Part shown: positions 10,586 through 22,306 of the stretch, piece by piece
Layout: each line of letters begins with the position of its first letter
How positions within the stretch are numbered: the stretch's first letter is position 1
IMG/VR virus record: IMGVR_UViG_2541047126_000026
Source of the DNA: a virus
Taxonomy: Duplodnaviria; Heunggongvirae; Uroviricota; Caudoviricetes
Reading direction: 5' to 3' (one strand)
Length of the DNA stretch: 39,662 bases
Notes under the pieces: generated by a model
What the model was told of the DNA's origin: nothing
What the model saw: only the letters and a program-made list of their open reading frames with translations
Database searches by the model: none
Translations under genes and position numbers: made by a program

Positions 10586-11939
10586 TAATCACCTCCACTG
10601 AATGGCCTCCGGGAATGAACAGCGGATCAACAATACCGTTACGGCGCACAAAACGTTGCCAGCCGGTACTGTTCCCGGTGGCACGGTACAGGGTCACCAG
10701 TGCAGGCTCGGTGGTACGTACAGTCACTACTGTTGCACCGGGTAGCTGAACTCCCCGTGTATTCAGATCCTCTGTCAGTGCCAGTCTGGCATCACGAAGC
10801 GTCAGCGCCGTGGCGGTATACCCCTGCCCGGACAGTGTCATCACCTGCCGTTCGAGCGCTTCGCTTAAGTCACGGTTAATGCGCTGAAGATCAACTGAAC
10901 TTTCCAGCCAGACAGGCCAGGTACGGTGGGCTGCGTCACTGTCCGGCAGGGTTTCCTGACTGAGAACCTGATCCAGCAGTTTTCCCACGGTCTGTGCCTG
11001 GGCCACCACGGCAGCACTCTGCATTACCGCCCGTATCAGACGAATATTCTTTTGTGCTGCCGGTGTCAGACCGATGAGAGTCTGCGGATTATCCTGCTCA
11101 TCCAGCACGTAACGCAGGGAAGATAATGTCCTGTACAGTTGCGGCATTCCCTGAGAGACGGCGGATGTCGTCCGGCCGATACTGCCACCGGGCCGGGTAT
11201 TCAGGCCTCCTGAAGACAGTGACGGCAGCGATGGCAGGGTGATCAGGGCACTGAAAAGCCCCGCAAAAGATGAGGCCATGCGGGAAGGTGCTGTCAGTAA
11301 TGCCGTGGCATTCCCTTTCAGCGCCGTGAACGTGGCAGTAAAGGCACTGATATCCTGTACAATCCCCATGCCGGAAACGGCATTTTCCAGGGCGGACACC
11401 TTATCACTGATGGTTTCGGTCATTGCCTGGACATCGTGCATTCCGTCAGAGATCACCGTCCAGCCCGCTTCCAGGGTTTCAAAAACCTGCCCGAGCGCGG
11501 TGGTACTCTTCTGCTCCAGAATGGCGGCCGTGTCCTGTGTGACAGCAGGTGCGGTATCATCACTTACCGGCGTGACATTAATGGTGAACTCAACCACGCC
11601 CTGTTCAGCGGCGTTATAACGACTTTCAAAGCTGTTTATCAGCACATTTAACGTGCCGTAATCCGGGTGAAGCAGCTCCCCGGCACCGGGAGCACGAAGG
11701 GCATCACGCAGACGATTTCGCTGCGTCTGAACATCATCCCCCATCACAAGTACACTGAACGTAAATTCAGCCAGTTTAGGTCCCAGATCGTCTGCCCCAC
11801 CGGTTTCCCGTAACGGATATTCCCGACGGACAATGTTTCGCCCGCCACGTTCGCGCTGCTCACGCCAGACGAGGAACGGCACACCACGGAACGCACCACG
11901 ACCGTCACCAGAGGCCATAATTCCCTCCGTTCCAGACAT
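10569..11939 (-). CDS. Mu gp43-like tail protein (DNA circularisation protein N family)
   Basis: 456 aa; immediately downstream of the tape measure gene. Confidence 0.65.
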   Translation of the reverse strand: MSGTEGIMASGDGRGAFRGVPFLVWREQRERGGRNIVRREYPLRETGGADDLGPKLAEFTFSVLVMGDDVQTQRNRLRDALRAPGAGELLHPDYGTLNVLINSFESRYNAAEQGVVEFTINVTPVSDDTAPAVTQDTAAILEQKSTTALGQVFETLEAGWTVISDGMHDVQAMTETISDKVSALENAVSGMGIVQDISAFTATFTALKGNATALLTAPSRMASSFAGLFSALITLPSLPSLSSGGLNTRPGGSIGRTTSAVSQGMPQLYRTLSSLRYVLDEQDNPQTLIGLTPAAQKNIRLIRAVMQSAAVVAQAQTVGKLLDQVLSQETLPDSDAAHRTWPVWLESSVDLQRINRDLSEALERQVMTLSGQGYTATALTLRDARLALTEDLNTRGVQLPGATVVTVRTTEPALVTLYRATGNSTGWQRFVRRNGIVDPLFIPGGHSVEVISEQQG

Positions 11940-13980
11940 TCACATCCAGTCCGTGACCGGACGTGTCATCAATATCAATACTGCGAGCCTGCCACCCTTC
12001 CGGGGCAACCAGCTCCACACGGGCAGAGGCTTTTTGTACCGCCTGTCCACTGCTTTCATCATCACTGCCCCGTAATTTCTGCCAGGCTTCAGTCAGCCAT
12101 CCCCCCAGATAGTTACCGAGATAGCTGCCCACCGTAGAACCAATGGCAATCCCCACAGGTCCGGCTGCCGCCCCCAGCGCACCACCGGCAATACTGCCTG
12201 CAAGAGAGCCGACCGCTTCTCCCTTGTCTGTGGCACTGGCGCTGCCATCCAGCAGAACCGGGGCTGCCATCGCGCCAGCCCACAGGGCACCGCCACCCAG
12301 CCGGCCGGCCAGTCCACCGGCACTGCGGAAAAAGCCGGAGAAACGCCCCAGCCCCATGCGGCTACCGACAGACGAAAGTAACCCACCGGCGCGCCCCATC
12401 ATGCGCCCCCAGAACCCTGCCCCACCAGAAGAGGGAGACGGTGGCACTGGGGACGGTGGCAGGGGAGGCGTGACCGGTCTTCCGCGCCCCGGTCCGCGTT
12501 TCCTGCGGCCCCGCCCCTGACGTCCGCCTGAGGAAGTATCGGTCGCGCCGGTGCCGGACAGTCCTCCTGTGGGCCAGTTTGTTACAAGTACTGGCTGAAC
12601 GGCTGCCGGATTTACCCCGGTAAGAAAGTTTATAAAACGTTGCCCTCGTCCCTGAGATGTGCCTGGTGGTGTTCCGGCCGGAGGAGAGCGCCGGAAAGGT
12701 GAAGTCAGGAAGGCCGCCGCTGATAATCCGTATCCCAGCAATGCAGCACCCGGACGTATAATCCCCATTCCGACAGCCCGCGCCATTTTCAGGGCACGGG
12801 TGGCGAGATACATGTACAGCAGGTATTTCGCGGCGGTCTGTGCCCCCTGACCAATGCGATCCAGCGCATCACCATAGCCCGCATCCCGCAGAGCCTGAAG
12901 CGTGTCGCGTACCTTTCTGATCGCCTGATAAAACCCTGTCACTGCATCACGGGCATACTCAAAGCCCTGGTTCATGGCTGATGCCGTGCTTTCCGCCAGG
13001 GAATGGTAACTGCCATCAGATTTGGCACTGTCAACCCATGAAAGAAATCCCCTGAGATTACCCTTCAGTTTTTCAAATGGCCCACTGTCCATCACATCCC
13101 GGGCAAACTGATCCCAGACGTCACCCATCATGGCCGTCAGGCCACTCCAGGAATTCATTGCGTCCTTTTGTGCTCCCCTGGCCTGTTCCGCCAGCGTCTG
13201 AAATAACAGGCGAATACTGTCCGGCCCAAGCAGCCCTTTTTCACCAAGTTTTCTGACCACTTTCTGGTCCACACCCAGACGATCAGCCAGCACGCGGTAG
13301 GCATTAATGCCGTAGGTGGCAAGAATATTTGCATCCGCTGCCTGAATACTGCCTCTTGCATACATCTGTTTCAGTTGCAGGGATGCCCCCTGTGCATCGG
13401 ACAGTGACCAGCCGCCCACGGCACCCTGATCCTGAAGCATGGTGACAAAATTTCGGGCCTCCCTGTCACTCATACCAAATCCCAGACTGGACGTATATTC
13501 CTGCATGACGCCAGCCAGCCCCCAGGTGGTTTCCTTCGCATTCTGTATTGCCCACCTGCGGACATCATCAGTTTTCGCCCGATCCCCTTTGTAAAGGGAG
13601 TTCAGGCGAATCATATAGGTTTCCATCTCCGCTGCCGGGCGAATAAATCCCCGGTTAAAGCCATATACAGCTGCACCACCGGCCAGCATTCCGTAAAGAT
13701 TGCTGATCCGCCCGATGGTGCCGGTAATACTGCCCTGAAGACGGTCAAAATCAGAAGTGACATGGCGGATACTGCCCCGCACCCCGGCCAGCGTGCGCTG
13801 CATCCTGCTTCCGAGTACATCTGTTTCCTGCCCGGCACGGCGGGCCGCATTTCCCAGACCACCCAGCCCCGCCTGGCCGGAGCGTGAGAATGCCCCCAGC
13901 TCCTGAGACCACTGGCGGGATTTGGCTGAGATATTGCCGAGCAAATCAACTATCAGAGATGCTCTGAGATTTCGGGCCAT
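11905..13980 (-). CDS. Tail tape measure protein
   Basis: 691 aa; Gly/Ala-rich C-terminus and a Pro-rich linker (PVTPPLPPSPVPPSPS); position between chaperone and baseplate genes. Confidence 0.75.
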   Translation of the reverse strand: MARNLRASLIVDLLGNISAKSRQWSQELGAFSRSGQAGLGGLGNAARRAGQETDVLGSRMQRTLAGVRGSIRHVTSDFDRLQGSITGTIGRISNLYGMLAGGAAVYGFNRGFIRPAAEMETYMIRLNSLYKGDRAKTDDVRRWAIQNAKETTWGLAGVMQEYTSSLGFGMSDREARNFVTMLQDQGAVGGWSLSDAQGASLQLKQMYARGSIQAADANILATYGINAYRVLADRLGVDQKVVRKLGEKGLLGPDSIRLLFQTLAEQARGAQKDAMNSWSGLTAMMGDVWDQFARDVMDSGPFEKLKGNLRGFLSWVDSAKSDGSYHSLAESTASAMNQGFEYARDAVTGFYQAIRKVRDTLQALRDAGYGDALDRIGQGAQTAAKYLLYMYLATRALKMARAVGMGIIRPGAALLGYGLSAAAFLTSPFRRSPPAGTPPGTSQGRGQRFINFLTGVNPAAVQPVLVTNWPTGGLSGTGATDTSSGGRQGRGRRKRGPGRGRPVTPPLPPSPVPPSPSSGGAGFWGRMMGRAGGLLSSVGSRMGLGRFSGFFRSAGGLAGRLGGGALWAGAMAAPVLLDGSASATDKGEAVGSLAGSIAGGALGAAAGPVGIAIGSTVGSYLGNYLGGWLTEAWQKLRGSDDESSGQAVQKASARVELVAPEGWQARSIDIDDTSGHGLDVNVWNGGNYGLW

Positions 13981-13982
13981 AC

Positions 13983-14165
13983 TTACTGCTTCGTTCTGAT
14001 GATTTTTTCTGTCTGTCGGCAGTGCCGGTAAAGTTGCGACAGGGGGAGGTTAAGCGCCCATTCCGGGCCACTTTTTGTCACCATCCCCAGGATAATTGCC
14101 GCTTCTTCAATCTGATCCCGACACTGCGCCTGATCGCCCCCGGTCAGCTGCCAGCTTTCCGGCAA
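13983..14165 (-). CDS. Overlapping +1-frame ORF at the 3' end of the chaperone gene; possible frameshift extension
   Basis: 60 aa ORF overlapping 14107..14165 in a different frame and ending 2 nt before the tape measure ATG. Confidence 0.3.
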   Translation of the reverse strand: MPESWQLTGGDQAQCRDQIEEAAIILGMVTKSGPEWALNLPLSQLYRHCRQTEKIIRTKQ

Positions 14166-14601
14166 GCGCGGTATCCAGCAGGCTGACCGCTGCCATCAGG
14201 CGGGAGAGATCGCGCTCGCTTAACTGTCCAATCTGACGGGGTGACAACGGACCTTCAATGTCTCCCACTGCGGCAATCTGACGGCGCAGCAGTGCAACAC
14301 CGCGTAACGACGGAGACGCTATCAGCATCGGGCCATTGTTTGTCTCCACCACGCGCTCGGCTTCTGCTTCTGCGTCAATACTGTCTTTCGCTGTCAGTTC
14401 CCGGAACGTGACACGATATTCACGGGTCTCACCAAACGGCAGACCATCAAGCAGATCCACATATCCCTTTGCCAGTTGCTCTGTCAGCCCGGCAGTGCGT
14501 GGATCAGCCCCCTCAAGTGCTTCCCGGATTGCCTCCATCACGGCTGCCTCGGAAACTGCCGTTTTTTTCTTACGTGTGGTCATTTTATTTTTCCTGATCA
14601 C
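14107..14601 (-). CDS. Tail assembly chaperone (Mu gp41-like)
   Basis: 164 aa, acidic; between tail tube and tape measure genes. Confidence 0.55.
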   Translation of the reverse strand: MIRKNKMTTRKKKTAVSEAAVMEAIREALEGADPRTAGLTEQLAKGYVDLLDGLPFGETREYRVTFRELTAKDSIDAEAEAERVVETNNGPMLIASPSLRGVALLRRQIAAVGDIEGPLSPRQIGQLSERDLSRLMAAVSLLDTALAGKLAADRGRSGAVSGSD

Positions 14602-14963
14602 TGAACACGGGTACTGGTGGCGCTGGCGAACTTCACGGAGATCTCCCCGCCACCGTCAAGCGAGGCCGGTTCACTGCTCCAGGCCTTCGTCATCATGTGG
14701 ACTTCGCCGGTATCCGCCACAAACTCGATAGTGACAGCAGTCCAGTTGTTGATTTCATCGGCGGCTGGTGAACCTTCTCCGCCTGCCGGAAATTTGCAGT
14801 CCAGTGTCGCTTCACGTGGTTTCTGGCGGTAACCATAGACTTTCGCGCCTTTCACCACTTCACGTTCAAAACCTGACGGAGAAAATGTAGCCCCCTCAAG
14901 CGTCTCGTATTCCTGACCGTTCACACGGATAGTGGCCGTGCCCTGATACTGTTTTCCGCTCAT
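14598..14963 (-). CDS. Tail tube protein (Mu M-like)
   Basis: 121 aa, directly downstream of the sheath gene. Confidence 0.75.
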   Translation of the reverse strand: MSGKQYQGTATIRVNGQEYETLEGATFSPSGFEREVVKGAKVYGYRQKPREATLDCKFPAGGEGSPAADEINNWTAVTIEFVADTGEVHMMTKAWSSEPASLDGGGEISVKFASATSTRVQ

Positions 14964-14971
14964 GCCTTACC

Positions 14972-16471
14972 TCACAAAATGAAACGGATCTGTGCTGCCA
15001 GGAAGCGGAACTGGTTAACCAGATCCGGCGTGCATAACACGTCAAGACGGTTTCGATCTGACGCATTACGCTCCACAAGCAGATTCTTTTTAAAGGTGTC
15101 CAGATTTTCGACCAGCCCGAGTTCCACCCACTCTTCACCCAGCGAAATTAACTGAAGCTTCATGATCTCCGGCGTCACGATATTCTGACCGGCACGAACG
15201 GGCGTCCCGTCATCAGCCAGTTTATGGCGCGGAAAACGTTGTGTGATAAAAGTACGCAGGGAATAACGCAGCCAGGAGAGGGTGTAGATGGTTTCCACAT
15301 CCAGATAGCTGGGATCACTTTCGCCGTACACGTTCTGGCGATACATGGTCACCTGACGTTCGATCTGAACCACATCACCGGCAGCCACACTGACCGTGGC
15401 AATCCCTCCCCACAGCAGACTGTTACGCTCTTCACGCGTCAGACGATCGGCCGGGGCCGGGGCCATGCGTGACGGAAGCGCCAGCGTCTGAAGCGGACGC
15501 GCAGGATCTGCCCCCAGAGACGGCGCACAGGTGGCGCAGACCGCCGCTGCCCAGAGGTAATCCGGTTCAGGGGCTTTGGGAATGAATGTGCAGGTCGCCA
15601 GAAAATCATTGCGTTTTGCCCCGAATGCCTGCACCTCACCAAACGTGCCGGTATGCGCCATCCACAGCACACCGTCAGACATTTTGGCCGGTCCCCAGCG
15701 TTTCAGAAGCTCATTACTGATGATTTTCAGGTTTGCATCATCCTTATAGGGCATGACGACATAGTTGTACTGGCGATCGCCCATACCCGCCACGCTTCGG
15801 GTGATATCCGGGTTAGTGGCTTTTGTTTTGGGATACCCAAGTTCAATGGTCAGTCCACCCGGTGTGGTTTCTCCGTCATGATAATTAACACGGATATCAT
15901 GTACGGAACATTCACCGGTAAAACGGGCATTAATTCCCATACTTCCCTTGAGTCCGCTGGCGTTATCTGCTACCTGACCTGCATAAGCACTGAAGGGCGC
16001 ATCAGCATCGGCATTAATAACAGAGACCAGAGCGTCAATAAGCTCCTTACCCTTCTGCCCTTTCGTGACAGCCAGCAGATAACGCCGACCGCCGATATAA
16101 ATGTGCAGAACACCATCCTGAGAGGCGGTGCCAATTATATTCATGAGACATGCCTGAGCCTGACCGGTGCCGCTCCCCTGAGCAATGGCATACAGTTCAG
16201 CATCAGGATTGATGGCGATAAATTCCGCCACCATCAGGGCAATCATGGAGCCGCGCCCCCAGAATTCTGTTGCCTGAGACGCACGGGTGATCCTGACCGG
16301 AACATCCAGAACACCGGCACCGTCCACGGCATTCTCTTTCATTCTCGCCTGACCAAACAGCAGCACACACTGACGCTGTGCCGGAGTGCCGGTGACAGCC
16401 ATGGAGTTATTAAACTCAACCTCAATCAGCGGTATACGGCGGTCATTACCGATCCCGTCAAAATTAATCAT
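14972..16471 (-). CDS. Contractile tail sheath protein (Mu L-like)
   Basis: 499 aa; size and position typical of myovirus sheath. Confidence 0.85.
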   Translation of the reverse strand: MINFDGIGNDRRIPLIEVEFNNSMAVTGTPAQRQCVLLFGQARMKENAVDGAGVLDVPVRITRASQATEFWGRGSMIALMVAEFIAINPDAELYAIAQGSGTGQAQACLMNIIGTASQDGVLHIYIGGRRYLLAVTKGQKGKELIDALVSVINADADAPFSAYAGQVADNASGLKGSMGINARFTGECSVHDIRVNYHDGETTPGGLTIELGYPKTKATNPDITRSVAGMGDRQYNYVVMPYKDDANLKIISNELLKRWGPAKMSDGVLWMAHTGTFGEVQAFGAKRNDFLATCTFIPKAPEPDYLWAAAVCATCAPSLGADPARPLQTLALPSRMAPAPADRLTREERNSLLWGGIATVSVAAGDVVQIERQVTMYRQNVYGESDPSYLDVETIYTLSWLRYSLRTFITQRFPRHKLADDGTPVRAGQNIVTPEIMKLQLISLGEEWVELGLVENLDTFKKNLLVERNASDRNRLDVLCTPDLVNQFRFLAAQIRFIL

Positions 16472-17274: not shown

Positions 17275-17690
17275 ATGAAGCCCTTCTGGTTGCGCCCGAA
17301 TACCGCTGCATCAGACTGAACCAGTGGTAAATCCCCGGATTCAGGGGCCGCACCGTTCGTATCCACACCGACCGGCACATTGCCGTTCATGACATCTTTC
17401 AGCCAGGCCAGCGCTTCACGGTAACGGTCACGCACCTGATCGGAGGCTCGCTGATCGCACAGGTAATAAAAGGCAATCGCGCAACAGTGCTGAACAAGAA
17501 CGGCCGGAATAACCTCCAGCGGCAACGTGTAACGGGCGGACAGATAGCTGTCGATAAGGGCTGACGCATCTGTCAGCGCCCGGTTCAGCTTGCGCGTGTC
17601 CGGCTCATCCGAACGGGGCACAGCCAGTAACGGCCTGAGCAAATCCTCGCGGTAACGCGCCCGCATATCGGTTTCAGTGGCGTAATTCAT
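17271..17690 (-). CDS. Mu gp36-like head-tail joining protein
   Basis: 139 aa; synteny. Confidence 0.5.
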   Translation of the reverse strand: MNYATETDMRARYREDLLRPLLAVPRSDEPDTRKLNRALTDASALIDSYLSARYTLPLEVIPAVLVQHCCAIAFYYLCDQRASDQVRDRYREALAWLKDVMNGNVPVGVDTNGAAPESGDLPLVQSDAAVFGRNQKGFI

Positions 17691-18088
17691 GCGCGGGCCT
17701 TTTTCGCCTGTTTCGCTTTGTTACCGGTCTTTTTCCGGGGAGCATCCTGTCCGGCTTCGGCTTCGGCTTCGGCTTCGGCTTCGGCTTCGGCTTCGGCTTC
17801 GGCTTCGGCTAAATCTGTACAGGCCACTGCATGAACCACACCCGCCACGCTCCCCGCATCATCAGCAGACGTCTGTAGTATTCGCACAGTGAGGCATGGC
17901 TCCGCCTCCAGTCGGGCAAGCTGCTCCGGGGTGACCTCAACCTGCTGACGTCCACGCGTGAACAGGAACCCCGCACGACGAAACGCCGAACGACTGCAAC
18001 GCACTTCTGCCAGCACCGTGACAGAATTGTCACCACTGACCTGAAGACCTGAATCATCTGTTGCTGCCACAGTGTGATGTTCATTCAT
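17687..18088 (-). CDS. Mu gp35-like protein with (Ala-Glu)9 linker and basic C-terminal tail
   Basis: 133 aa; ...LAEAEAEAEAEAEAEAEAEAGQDAPRKKTGNKAKQAKKARA; directly downstream of the major head gene. Confidence 0.5.
   Translation of the reverse strand: MNEHHTVAATDDSGLQVSGDNSVTVLAEVRCSRSAFRRAGFLFTRGRQQVEVTPEQLARLEAEPCLTVRILQTSADDAGSVAGVVHAVACTDLAEAEAEAEAEAEAEAEAEAGQDAPRKKTGNKAKQAKKARA
17752..17810. repeat. Tandem hexanucleotide repeat (CGGCTT)n, about 9.8 copies
   Basis: Perfect tandem hexamer inside the gp35-like CDS, encoding (AE)n on the minus strand. Confidence 0.9.
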
Positions 18089-20890: not shown

Positions 20891-20973
20891 GCGGTCAGTG
20901 TACGCTTAACTGGTAAAGTCGGTGCCTGCCTCCGGGTGGATCATGTATGCGGGTTCGACCCCCGCCACTGACC
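20891..20973. other. Structured intergenic element between F and G: 9 bp inverted repeat enclosing a GCGGG-TTCGACC-CCCGC hairpin
   Basis: CGGTCAGTG...CACTGACCG with an inner hairpin that resembles a tRNA T-arm; no D or anticodon arms. Confidence 0.3.
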
Positions 20974-20974
20974 G

Positions 20975-22306
20975 TTAATCAATATCTCCTTCCAGTACCT
21001 CAAGCATTCCGCCCCGGATATCCGATTTCAGCTTATCCATATTGATAACCCGGTAAGCATTCACAATCACATCCAGTTTATCCGGCTGACGCTTCAGGCT
21101 GTACGGCGCATTAACGGCAATCTGCACACTGCCATCCTTACTTTCCACGATATACATCAGATTGTTGTGGCGTTTATCCCACAGTACCGCTTTTGGCTTT
21201 GCCAGCATTGCCGGTAATCGCCCGAAATCCTCCGGCGTCAGGGCAATGCCGTCATTCTGATGTTTCATGCTGTCCGCATGGAGCACATTTTTACCGCTCA
21301 TCGCCAGCAGGCGGGCCGGTGGCGTTCCCGTCCGGCTTTCCACCGCCTGCGCAATACTTTCGGTCATAAAGCCCAGCGTGCGGATATCGTTACCGCCTCG
21401 CCGGGTTTTCATGATGTTTTTTGCCCAGATGCGGAACGCCAGCTGCCGCTCCGGGCTGTTGTTCATCTCCTGAACCACCATTTCCCGTAACGCCGGGCTT
21501 TTCACCTCGATCAACTTGCGGAGCAGCGCCTGGTCTGTGCCGAACGCCGCCGAACCGGGGTTATATGACCAGCCCACATCCGGTGTCATGGTTCTGGTGC
21601 CATCTGAATATGTGGTCACCGGCATTTCTCTGACTTCTCCGGTCTGCTTATCCACGCCAGCCTCAACATTGCGGGTGGAAAGATGATCCTGACCGGATGA
21701 AACGGATAACCCCATTGCATCCAGACGGGTCTGAGACAATGGCCGGACACGGCAGCGGCAGTTCCAGCCATTGGGTGGGTAGTGTGTATTCCAGAACGGA
21801 TCGTCATAGCGGAATACCAGCCCGTTAAGGGCGGAATGCGCCGGGCGGGTGCGGCTGTCCATCACCGCCACATACTGCCAGAACGGATGCGTGTCCGTGT
21901 TGTTCATCATCTGCGTGTAACGCCCGGCATTGTAAGCCACGCGGGTGTTCACGTTGTAAATCAGCGCCAGACGGCGGGGACTGCCCAGCTGCACTTCTTC
22001 TGCGTTACCGACGCTGTCCACCACAATCTGCTTTCCCCACCATCCCAGCTTTTGCAGGCGGGGTGTCAGTGTGCGGATAAATGCTTTCTGTGAAATCCCC
22101 TCATCAACAGCACGCTGCACTTCCGCCTGTAGTGTGGTCAGTACGTCCAGGCGTGCCACTTTTGCCGCCGTGAATGAACGGGCATGAACATCTGCGTTTG
22201 TTTCGAACCAGTTCCAGCTGATATGCGCCCCTTTGGCGCGGAAGTATGCCACCGCCTCTTTTGAGGGAAGGGTGGCGGCATAACCTAAATCAATCCCCTG
22301 TGCCAT
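20975..22306 (-). CDS. F: Head morphogenesis protein (Mu F-like)
   Basis: 443 aa; immediately downstream of the portal gene. Confidence 0.8.
   Translation of the reverse strand: MAQGIDLGYAATLPSKEAVAYFRAKGAHISWNWFETNADVHARSFTAAKVARLDVLTTLQAEVQRAVDEGISQKAFIRTLTPRLQKLGWWGKQIVVDSVGNAEEVQLGSPRRLALIYNVNTRVAYNAGRYTQMMNNTDTHPFWQYVAVMDSRTRPAHSALNGLVFRYDDPFWNTHYPPNGWNCRCRVRPLSQTRLDAMGLSVSSGQDHLSTRNVEAGVDKQTGEVREMPVTTYSDGTRTMTPDVGWSYNPGSAAFGTDQALLRKLIEVKSPALREMVVQEMNNSPERQLAFRIWAKNIMKTRRGGNDIRTLGFMTESIAQAVESRTGTPPARLLAMSGKNVLHADSMKHQNDGIALTPEDFGRLPAMLAKPKAVLWDKRHNNLMYIVESKDGSVQIAVNAPYSLKRQPDKLDVIVNAYRVINMDKLKSDIRGGMLEVLEGDID

What the first reader, a model, noticed from the sequence alone, without database searches (positions are those of the whole stretch)
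13983..14601. Possible programmed +1 frameshift linking the tail chaperone to a downstream overlapping ORF
A 60 aa ORF overlaps the last 59 nt of the chaperone gene in the +1 frame and ends 2 nt before the tape measure ATG. That geometry matches the G/GT-type chaperone frameshift conserved in tailed phages. I did not find an obvious slippery heptamer.
Basis: partly seen in the sequence, partly recalled or inferred. Interest (0 to 1): 0.4.

Follow-up and report, generated by a model that had tools for sequence, protein, structure and literature searches.

The report
Mu-type tail chaperone frameshift site
This is the well-known programmed ribosomal frameshift that Mu-like phages use to make a longer second version of their tail assembly chaperone; the copy in this E. 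coli prophage carries the same slip sequence as phage Mu, so it is ordinary and merely unannotated.

Summary
On the minus strand, a +1-frame ORF overlaps the 3' end of a Gp41_Mu-family tail assembly chaperone (14583-14107). It fills the otherwise empty 126-nt gap and stops 2 nt before the tape measure ATG (13980).

The same nine bases sit at the same place in phages Mu, D108 and SfMu. The curated Mu GenBank record annotates that site as a verified -2 translational frameshift (Xu, Hendrix and Duda 2004).

- The core G_GGG_CGA is present in all 61 distinct slip regions found in 92 related loci.
- It is the only invariant block in an anchored alignment of 25 diverse relatives.
- In every annotated relative checked, the +1 frame stays open to the tape measure start while the -1 frame closes.
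- No start codon is conserved in the +1 ORF.
- The 51-codon extension is homologous to Mu's (E 1e-21) and under purifying selection (dN/dS 0.09-0.22).

Best explanation: a minority of ribosomes slip back 2 nt on the G run, giving a 200-aa chaperone-extension fusion alongside the 158-aa protein. The direction (-2 rather than +1) is inferred from Mu. The finding is already known biology and of low interest.

The parts
14107..14583 (-). Tail assembly chaperone, zero-frame product (158 aa; Mu gp41 homologue, analogous to lambda gpG). The ORF listing gives an upstream alternative GTG start at 14601.
   Evidence: Pfam PF23746 Gp41_Mu, E 7e-32, and PF10109 Phage_TAC_7, E 1e-5. PHROG 508 tail assembly chaperone, E 5e-46. 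RefSeq annotates the same 477-nt CDS as 'phage tail assembly protein'. About 47-49% identical to Mu gp41.
14134..14142 (-). Shift site CGG GGG CGA (Arg148-Gly149-Arg150 in the zero frame). A run of five G is followed by the rare Arg codon CGA. Proposed event: the P-site tRNA-Gly moves from GGG (14139-14137) back 2 nt to GGG (14141-14139), and decoding resumes at GGC (14138-14136).
   Evidence: The identical 9-mer sits at the same codon phase in Mu, D108 and SfMu. [C/A]GG GGG CGA or NNG GGG CGA is present in frame in 91 of 92 related loci; the exception, L054, has an indel in the run. The core GGGGCGA is found in all 61 distinct slip regions. It is the only invariant block in an anchored alignment of 25 representatives with mean identity 45%. 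RGR is invariant in the chaperone protein alignment while the flanking residues vary. CGA is 6.7% of Arg codons in this window's ORFs.
13983..14138 (-). Extension segment reached only by frameshifting (51 codons, GDQAQCRDQIEEAAIILGMVTKSGPEWALNLPLSQLYRHCRQTEKIIRTKQ, plus TAA). It is the equivalent of lambda's T segment and of Mu/D108 '41.5'. The predicted -2 fusion protein is 200 aa (...LAADRG-GDQAQ...).
   Evidence: BLASTP against the Mu extension: 53% identity, E 1e-21, with similarity starting at the GG of the slip site. PHROG 12783, E 4e-38. DNA match to D108 gene 41.5. dN/dS 0.09-0.22 and an excess of third-position changes against relatives at 85-89% DNA identity. Not annotated in RefSeq.
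13983..14195 (-). Full stop-free stretch of the +1/-2 frame (70 codons plus stop). It overlaps the chaperone by 89 nt.
11905..13980 (-). Tape measure protein gene (691 aa). Its ATG lies 2 nt after the stop of the extension.
   Evidence: Pfam PF20155 TMP_3, E 2e-18. RefSeq 'tape measure protein'.
14598..14963 (-). Tail tube protein gene, immediately upstream of the chaperone.
   Evidence: Pfam PF10618 Tail_tube, E 6e-31.
14972..16471 (-). Tail sheath gene. It completes the conserved order sheath - tube - chaperone (with its extension) - tape measure.
   Evidence: Pfam Phage_sheath_1, E 7e-35, and Phage_sheath_1C, E 6e-23.

Best explanation
The window carries a Mu-like prophage of E. coli. Its tail operon runs sheath, tube, chaperone, tape measure on the minus strand.

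Most ribosomes translate the chaperone gene to its own stop at 14107 and make a 158-aa protein. A small fraction pause with tRNA-Gly on GGG (14139-14137) in the P site and the rare Arg codon CGA in the A site. The tRNA then slips back two bases onto the overlapping GGG of the five-G run, and translation resumes at GGC in the -2 (= +1) frame. It continues for 51 codons to the TAA at 13985-13983, just before the tape measure ATG. The product is a 200-aa fusion of the chaperone with a C-terminal extension (...AADRG-GDQAQCR...).

By analogy with lambda G/GT, the chaperone part would coat the tape measure protein. The extension would recruit tail tube subunits. Both products would be needed in a fixed ratio and absent from the finished virion.

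Shown here: the geometry, the family membership, the identity of the shift site with Mu's, its deep conservation, the lack of an independent start, and purifying selection on the extension.

Inferred from Mu and lambda: that the shift happens, that it is -2, its low efficiency, and the roles of the two products.
For: - Family and position. The chaperone is Gp41_Mu (E 7e-32) and lies between tail tube and tape measure. The whole region is a Mu-like prophage with Gam, Mor, gpT head and a DNA circularization protein, and it is present in 228 of 5426 complete E. coli genomes.
- Shift site. CGG GGG CGA is in the zero frame 35 nt before the stop, identical to Mu, D108 and SfMu. GenBank AF083977 annotates Mu_56 as 'verified -2 translational frameshift in PMID 15469818; tail assembly chaperone frameshift product'. 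Reviews and papers state that Mu uses -2. Reported efficiency is about 2.2% in vivo and 14% for the isolated site in a cell-free system.
- Conservation. The core G_GGG_CGA occurs in 61 of 61 distinct slip regions from phages and prophages of Escherichia, Pasteurella, Vibrio, Shewanella, Klebsiella and Alteromonadaceae. It is the only invariant block among 25 representatives.
- Frames. In the 10 annotated relatives the +1 frame stays open until 15 nt before to 16 nt after the tape measure start. Across 91 of 92 loci it extends 64-142 nt past the chaperone stop (L054 is the exception), and in the closer relatives the -1 frame closes within a few codons.
- Narrow permissive window. In some relatives the +1 frame opens only 3 codons before the GGC codon, and the zero frame closes 3 codons after the GGG. 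The shift must therefore happen on the motif.
- No independent start. No start codon is conserved in the +1 ORF. Mu has none for 28 codons past the site.
- The extension is a real coding sequence. E 1e-21 against Mu's, PHROG 12783 E 4e-38, dN/dS 0.09-0.22.
Against: - No protein evidence exists for this prophage. The shift itself and its direction rest on homology with Mu.
- No stimulatory RNA structure was detected around the site in the window (z +0.15 for 70 nt downstream; z +0.62 for 121 nt). No conserved upstream element was seen either.
- Relatives about 80% identical have only four G (AAG GGG CGA). On that sequence a -2 re-pairing would be imperfect, so the five-G run may not be the essential feature.
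- I could not read Xu et al. 2004 directly. The exact Mu shift position is taken from the sequence and the GenBank note.
Confidence: 0.75

Rival explanations
1. The recoding event and the two products are the same, but the ribosome shifts +1 rather than -2. With GGG in the P site and the slowly decoded CGA in the A site, tRNA-Gly moves forward one base to GGC and reading continues at GAU. The fusion is 199 aa (...AADRG-DQAQCR...), one glycine shorter.
For: - The family-invariant core is G_GGG_CGA, not the five-G run. Variants with AAG, CAG or TCG before GGG CGA occur in several independent prophages. On these a -2 slip would land on AGG or CGG, with a first-position mismatch, whereas a +1 slip onto GGC is unaffected.
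- CGA is rare, at 6.7% of Arg codons, as expected for a hungry-codon +1 site.
- Reporter assays cannot separate -2 from +1.
Against: - At the identical nine-base site in Mu the shift is annotated as verified -2 and is cited as such in reviews.
- The five-G run in the window allows perfect GGG-to-GGG re-pairing at -2.
- CGA is also forced by double coding: Arg in the zero frame and Gly-Asp/Glu in the +1 frame. Its invariance therefore does not by itself argue for a hungry codon.
Confidence: 0.17
2. The downstream ORF is a separate small gene, as annotated in D108 as '41.5' and grouped as PHROG 12783. It would be translated from its own start (TTG 14165 in the window) with no frameshift.
For: The D108 record annotates 41.5 as an independent CDS. 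PHROG 12783 treats such ORFs as a family of about 54-aa proteins. The window has a TTG 9 codons upstream of the slip site.
Against: - No Shine-Dalgarno sequence lies before the TTG (upstream sequence ctgctggataccgcgc).
- No start codon is conserved across relatives. Mu and SfMu have none until 28 codons past the site, and L010, L049, L078 and L087 have none for 16-32 codons.
- Homology in the +1 frame begins exactly at the GG of the slip site.
- Independent initiation would not explain an invariant G_GGG_CGA.
Confidence: 0.03
3. RNA polymerase slips on the G run, adding two G or dropping one. A minority of mRNAs then carry chaperone and extension in one frame.
For: The site is a homopolymer run. 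Loss of one G gives an in-frame fusion, as seen in a few database sequences (P0001, P0099-P0101; L054).
Against: - By general knowledge, productive transcriptional slippage in bacteria needs longer runs, typically 8-9 A or T. Here the run is five G, and only four in functional-looking relatives.
- Slippage would not explain the invariance of the following CGA.
- The Mu event is classed as ribosomal frameshifting in the recoding literature.
Confidence: 0.02
4. The overlapping ORF is a chance open frame in non-coding spacer DNA, with no product.
For: An open frame of 70 codons is not very rare in DNA of this composition, and the octamer alone is not enriched.
Against: Homology to Mu's extension at E 1e-21, dN/dS 0.09-0.22, the frame kept open in all relatives checked down to about 34% chaperone identity, and a tightly packed operon elsewhere.
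Confidence: 0.01

Closest known systems
Phage Mu gp41 / gp41 frameshift product (GenBank AF083977 features Mu_41 and Mu_56; Xu, Hendrix and Duda 2004, PMID 15469818)
   Same: Same Pfam family (Gp41_Mu). Same gene order: sheath, tube, chaperone, tape measure. Identical shift site CGG GGG CGA in the same codon phase. Extension of the same length (51 codons after the site) and 53% identical. The extension ends just before the tape measure start.
   Different: The chaperone is only about 47-49% identical and carries a 14-residue longer N-terminus. The zero frame continues 10 codons from the GGG to its stop, against 8 in Mu. The extension stops 2 nt before the tape measure ATG, against 14 nt in Mu. 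There is no experimental evidence for this prophage, and RefSeq does not annotate the fusion.
Phage lambda G / GT tail assembly chaperones (Levin, Hendrix and Casjens 1993; Xu et al. 2013, 2014)
   Same: Two products from overlapping ORFs directly upstream of the tape measure gene, made by low-level programmed frameshifting. The presumed roles are chaperone on the tape measure plus recruitment of tube subunits.
   Different: Lambda shifts -1 on a G GGA AAG heptamer (own knowledge), whereas this site reaches the +1/-2 frame on a G run with no heptamer. There is no detectable sequence similarity. Lambda has a non-contractile tail.
Phage P2 E / E+E' (Christie et al. 2002)
   Same: A contractile-tail phage with a frameshifted chaperone pair between tube and tape measure. 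It shares the broad Pfam family Phage_TAC_7, 'E, or 41 or 14' (Mu record note).
   Different: P2 uses a -1 shift on a T-rich heptamer (own knowledge). The similarity is only marginal (PF10109 E 1e-5, barely above cut-off).

Membership tests
G/GT-type tail assembly chaperone frameshift (Xu, Hendrix, Duda 2004) | Gene pair located between the major tail/tube gene and the tape measure gene | tested here: met
   Tube 14963-14598, chaperone 14583-14107, extension to 13983, tape measure from 13980.
G/GT-type tail assembly chaperone frameshift (Xu, Hendrix, Duda 2004) | Second ORF overlaps the 3' end of the first in another frame, lacks its own conserved start, and ends near the tape measure start | tested here: met
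   89-nt overlap in the +1 frame; stop 2 nt before the tape measure ATG. No conserved start codon or Shine-Dalgarno sequence across 25 representatives.
G/GT-type tail assembly chaperone frameshift (Xu, Hendrix, Duda 2004) | Conserved slippery sequence inside the overlap | tested here: met
   CGG GGG CGA at 14142-14134. The core is invariant in 61 of 61 distinct slip regions.
G/GT-type tail assembly chaperone frameshift (Xu, Hendrix, Duda 2004) | Both the short and the frameshift-extended protein are made | not testable with these tools
   Needs proteomics or expression constructs. The only indirect support is purifying selection on the extension.
Mu gp41 family with -2 frameshift | Chaperone belongs to Pfam Gp41_Mu (PF23746) | tested here: met
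   E 7e-32, 110 bits against a cut-off of 27, full-length profile match.
Mu gp41 family with -2 frameshift | Extension homologous to the Mu/D108 '41.5' segment | tested here: met
   BLASTP E 1e-21, 53% identity. PHROG 12783 E 4e-38. blastn hit to D108 41.5.
Mu gp41 family with -2 frameshift | Shift site identical to Mu's and in the same phase | tested here: met
   CGG GGG CGA is in the zero frame in the window, Mu, D108 and SfMu.
Mu gp41 family with -2 frameshift | Direction of shift is -2 (one extra Gly at the junction) | not testable with these tools
   Annotated as verified for Mu. Sequence alone cannot separate -2 from +1.
Canonical -1 frameshift on an X XXY YYZ heptamer (lambda, P2, most tailed phages) | Extension lies in the -1 frame and is reached from a heptanucleotide slippery site | tested here: not met
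   The -1 frame closes 29 nt past the chaperone stop, and the conserved ORF is in the +1/-2 frame. No heptamer is visible in the sequence of the overlap; no pattern scan was run.
Transcriptional slippage recoding | Long homopolymer run (about 8 or more) at the frame junction | tested here: not met
   The run is 5 G in the window and 4 G in some relatives.

The most novel reading that the evidence does not exclude
The invariant element of this family is G_GGG_CGA rather than the five-G run. Related prophages about 80% identical at the protein level have AAG GGG CGA, where a -2 slip cannot re-pair perfectly. The family may therefore use +1 in some members, or a mixture of -2 and +1 at one site. 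The window's site would then yield two fusion isoforms differing by one glycine. That would make this a natural series for studying what sets the direction of a frameshift.
Probability: 0.15. Interest if true: 0.35.

Novelty: already known. Interest (0 to 1): 0.1.

Why it matters
Practically, it is an annotation fix. RefSeq leaves a 126-nt gap here, and in hundreds of E. coli, Shigella and Salmonella genomes it calls only the 158-aa protein. A joined CDS with ribosomal slippage, as in the curated Mu record, should be added.

Biologically it adds nothing new. The Mu tail chaperone frameshift has been known since 2004 and was long cited as the only natural programmed -2 shift in bacteria.

The comparative set assembled here gives a clean definition of the conserved signal, G_GGG_CGA, with no conserved flanking sequence detected. 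It also turns up natural four-G variants that could be used to probe -2 versus +1 slippage.

Tried and rejected
- Genome collection scan. The genome-contig scan with the chaperone protein found no confirmed relatives, because the peptide patterns were too specific. I used phage records and viral contigs instead.
- Primary literature. Xu et al. 2004 is not held in the library. A full-text search for the motif GGGGGCGA returned only irrelevant hits, and the one phage paper used it as a ribosome binding site. I found no printed statement of the exact Mu slip sequence. It is taken from the Mu and D108 sequences plus the GenBank note.
- Stimulatory RNA structure. The 70 nt downstream of the site in 25 representatives gave a mean z of only -0.95 and +0.15 for the window. 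A 121-nt fold around the window site gave z +0.62. I rejected this as evidence for the window.
- Family and structure libraries for the extension. There was no Pfam hit, no NCBIfam hit and no solved structure. Only PHROG 12783, of unknown function, matched.
- -1 frameshift. Rejected because the -1 frame closes after 29 nt.
- Independent start at TTG 14165. Rejected because it has no Shine-Dalgarno sequence and is not conserved.
- Search for an already annotated fusion protein of this prophage. None carries the -2 junction. The only full-length fusions are single-base-deletion variants.
- Structure prediction was not attempted. The fusion is a composite sequence and the family assignment was already secure.

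Full report
**1. What is in the sequence**

The genes of this region lie on the minus strand. The order is:
- tail sheath, 16471-14972
- tail tube, 14963-14598
- an ORF listed as 14601-14107
- a 60-aa ORF, 14165-13983
- a 691-aa tape measure protein, from 13980

Pfam confirms the sheath, tube and tape measure assignments. It places the middle ORF in Gp41_Mu (PF23746, E 7e-32), the Mu tail assembly chaperone family. RefSeq starts this gene at the ATG at 14583, giving 158 aa.

The overlap is 59 nt, the frame offset is +1, and the stop TAA at 13985-13983 lies two bases before the tape measure ATG. The +1 frame is in fact stop-free from 14195, so 89 nt of overlap are available for a shift.

**2. 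Context**

The window is a Mu-like prophage of E. coli. The region is 100% identical to strain CV261 and at least 99% identical in 184 chromosome or plasmid records. It is present in 228 of 5426 complete genomes, including many O157:H7 strains.

The CV261 annotation shows Gam, Mor, lysozyme, portal-like and head morphogenesis proteins, a Mu gpT head subunit, sheath, tube, 'phage tail assembly protein', tape measure, DNA circularization protein, baseplate, tail fibre, an invertase-type recombinase and Com. The element sits next to a truncated oppF.

RefSeq annotates nothing in the 126 nt between the chaperone and the tape measure gene.

**3. The shift site**

The overlap does contain CGG GGG CGA at 14142-14134, which forms codons 148-150 (Arg-Gly-Arg) of the chaperone.

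Phages Mu, D108 and SfMu have exactly the same nine bases in the same phase, 29 nt before their chaperone stop. This holds even though the surrounding DNA is too diverged for blastn to align more than 58 nt.

The curated Mu GenBank record AF083977 carries a two-piece joined CDS, Mu_56. Its note reads 'verified -2 translational frameshift in PMID 15469818; tail assembly chaperone frameshift product'. The recoding literature says the same: Mu uses -2 frameshifting for its gpGT-like protein. It was for years the only known natural programmed -2 case, with an efficiency of about 2.2%. A recent preprint measured 14% for the isolated site in a cell-free system.

On the five-G run a -2 slip is easy to picture. 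tRNA-Gly on GGG (14139-14137) re-pairs perfectly with GGG two bases upstream (14141-14139). The next codon read is then GGC, followed by GAU, CAG and so on in the new frame.

**4. Comparative test**

I collected 92 related loci. They comprise 12 from phage and E. coli records and 80 from viral contigs.
- In 91 of them the chaperone carries [C/A]GG GGG CGA or NNG GGG CGA in the zero frame near its 3' end. The one exception, L054, has indels in G runs.
- Collapsed to 61 distinct slip regions, all 61 have G GGG CGA. Fifty-three have the full five-G run.
- An ungapped alignment of 25 diverse representatives was anchored on the site. They come from Escherichia, Pasteurella, Klebsiella, Vibrio, Shewanella and Alteromonadaceae phages and from metagenomic contigs. 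Mean identity is 45%, and GGGGCGA is the only invariant block.
- In the protein alignment, R-G-R is invariant while the neighbouring residues vary. This is the usual signature of a nucleotide-level constraint.
- In the 10 annotated relatives the +1/-2 frame is open from the site to between 15 nt before and 16 nt after the tape measure start. Across the 91 loci it extends 64-142 nt past the chaperone stop, whereas in the closer relatives the -1 frame closes quickly.
- In some relatives the +1 frame opens only three codons before the GGC codon (L010, L078). In others the zero frame ends three codons after the GGG (L010, L011). The change of frame must therefore take place on the motif itself.

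**5. The extension is a real coding sequence without its own start**
- The 51-residue extension aligns with Mu's from the very first residues, the GG of the slip site. Identity is 53% and the E-value 1e-21. It matches PHROG 12783 at E 4e-38.
- Against relatives at 85-89% DNA identity, substitutions fall mainly on third codon positions of the +1 frame (for example 4, 1 and 11 at positions 1, 2 and 3). dN/dS is 0.09-0.22.
- No ATG, GTG or TTG is conserved in the +1 ORF. Mu and SfMu have none for 28 codons past the site. The window's TTG at 14165 has no Shine-Dalgarno sequence.
- The D108 annotation of a separate gene '41.5' and the PHROG family are best read as gene-caller artefacts of the same recoding event.

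**6. Mechanism and what remains inferred**

The best explanation is a low-frequency -2 ribosomal slip at CGG GGG CGA. It would yield a 200-aa fusion (...LAADRG-GDQAQCR...) in addition to the 158-aa chaperone. By analogy with lambda G/GT, the shared part would bind the tape measure protein and the extension would recruit tube subunits.

The direction of the shift, its efficiency and the protein functions are inferred, not shown. I found no stimulatory RNA structure near the window's site (z +0.15 and +0.62) and no conserved flanking sequence.

The A-site codon CGA is rare here, at 6.7% of Arg codons, which fits a pause-driven slip. However, CGA is also nearly forced by double coding: Arg in frame 0 and Gly-Asp/Glu in frame +1.

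The main rival is a +1 slip from GGG to GGC, which gives a fusion one Gly shorter. It gains some weight from natural variants with only four G: AAG GGG CGA in L034-L039, CAG GGG CGA in L041 and L042, and TCG GGG CGA in L060 and L064. On those sequences a -2 re-pairing would be imperfect. Independent initiation, transcriptional slippage and a chance ORF are each very unlikely, for the reasons given under the rival explanations.

**7. Comparison with what is known, and novelty**

This is the Mu instance of the conserved tail-chaperone frameshift described by Xu, Hendrix and Duda in 2004. It meets every membership feature that can be tested from sequence: family, position, overlap geometry, identical shift site and a homologous extension. 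Only the protein-level features are untestable here.

It differs from lambda and P2 in reaching the +1/-2 frame without a heptamer.

A search of 5.8 billion proteins found almost only the 158-aa form. No entry carries the -2 junction for this prophage. The few full-length fusions (P0001, P0099-P0101) lack one G of the run and so read ...RGDQ or ...RGEW.

The finding is therefore correct but already known biology. Its value is as an annotation correction. Interest is low.

Noticed in passing
L034-L037 and L039 (slip site about 27 nt before the chaperone stop at 1174 or 1168); L041/L042; L060/L064: Mu-like prophage relatives have only four G at the shift site: AAG GGG CGA (chaperone about 80% identical), CAG GGG CGA or TCG GGG CGA. 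The +1-frame extension is intact. A -2 slip would re-pair on AGG or CGG with a first-position mismatch, so these members may shift +1 or tolerate the mismatch.
   Followed up: partly
L010:1055-1124, L011:1010-1079, L012:1040-1109: Shewanella and Vibrio Mu-like phages have a long hairpin whose closing stem starts 6 nt after the CGA of the shift site. Individual z-scores are -4.4, -1.7 and -5.6. The closing stem is kept with two compensatory changes among the three sequences. The window and the enterobacterial relatives show nothing comparable. It may be a clade-specific frameshift stimulator.
   Followed up: partly
P0001, P0099, P0100, P0101; L054:1040-1240: A few database proteins and one viral contig have chaperone and extension fused in one frame, consistent with the G run having lost one G (junction ...RGDQ or ...RGEW). 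L054 has a second indel in another G run further on. These are either homopolymer sequencing errors or defective prophages that would make only the fusion.
   Followed up: partly
window about 20909-20988 (+), between the head morphogenesis gene (ends 20975) and the virion morphogenesis gene (starts 20853): RefSeq annotates a 'tRNA-OTHER' at the corresponding place in strain CV261 (L095:14013-14092, opposite strand to the phage genes). ARAGORN finds no tRNA anywhere in the window.
   Followed up: partly
window 17687-18088 (-): The 133-aa protein downstream of the major head gene, which RefSeq calls 'HI1506-related protein', contains a perfect run of Ala-Glu dipeptides (AEAEAE..., about 11 units) encoded by a GCnGAn hexanucleotide repeat. 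The repeat could vary in length between strains.
   Followed up: no
window 13980-13995 (-): The tape measure ATG is preceded by only a weak purine stretch (GAAGCAGTAAGT ATG). It lies 2 nt after the extension's stop but 126 nt after the stop used by most ribosomes. How the tape measure gene is efficiently initiated here is unclear. Mu has an AGGAAA Shine-Dalgarno sequence at the equivalent place.
   Followed up: no
L095:35176-35985 (E. coli CV261), just beyond window position 1: In the identical copy in strain CV261 the prophage end abuts a truncated oppF. This is consistent with Mu-type transposition into the opp operon.
   Followed up: no
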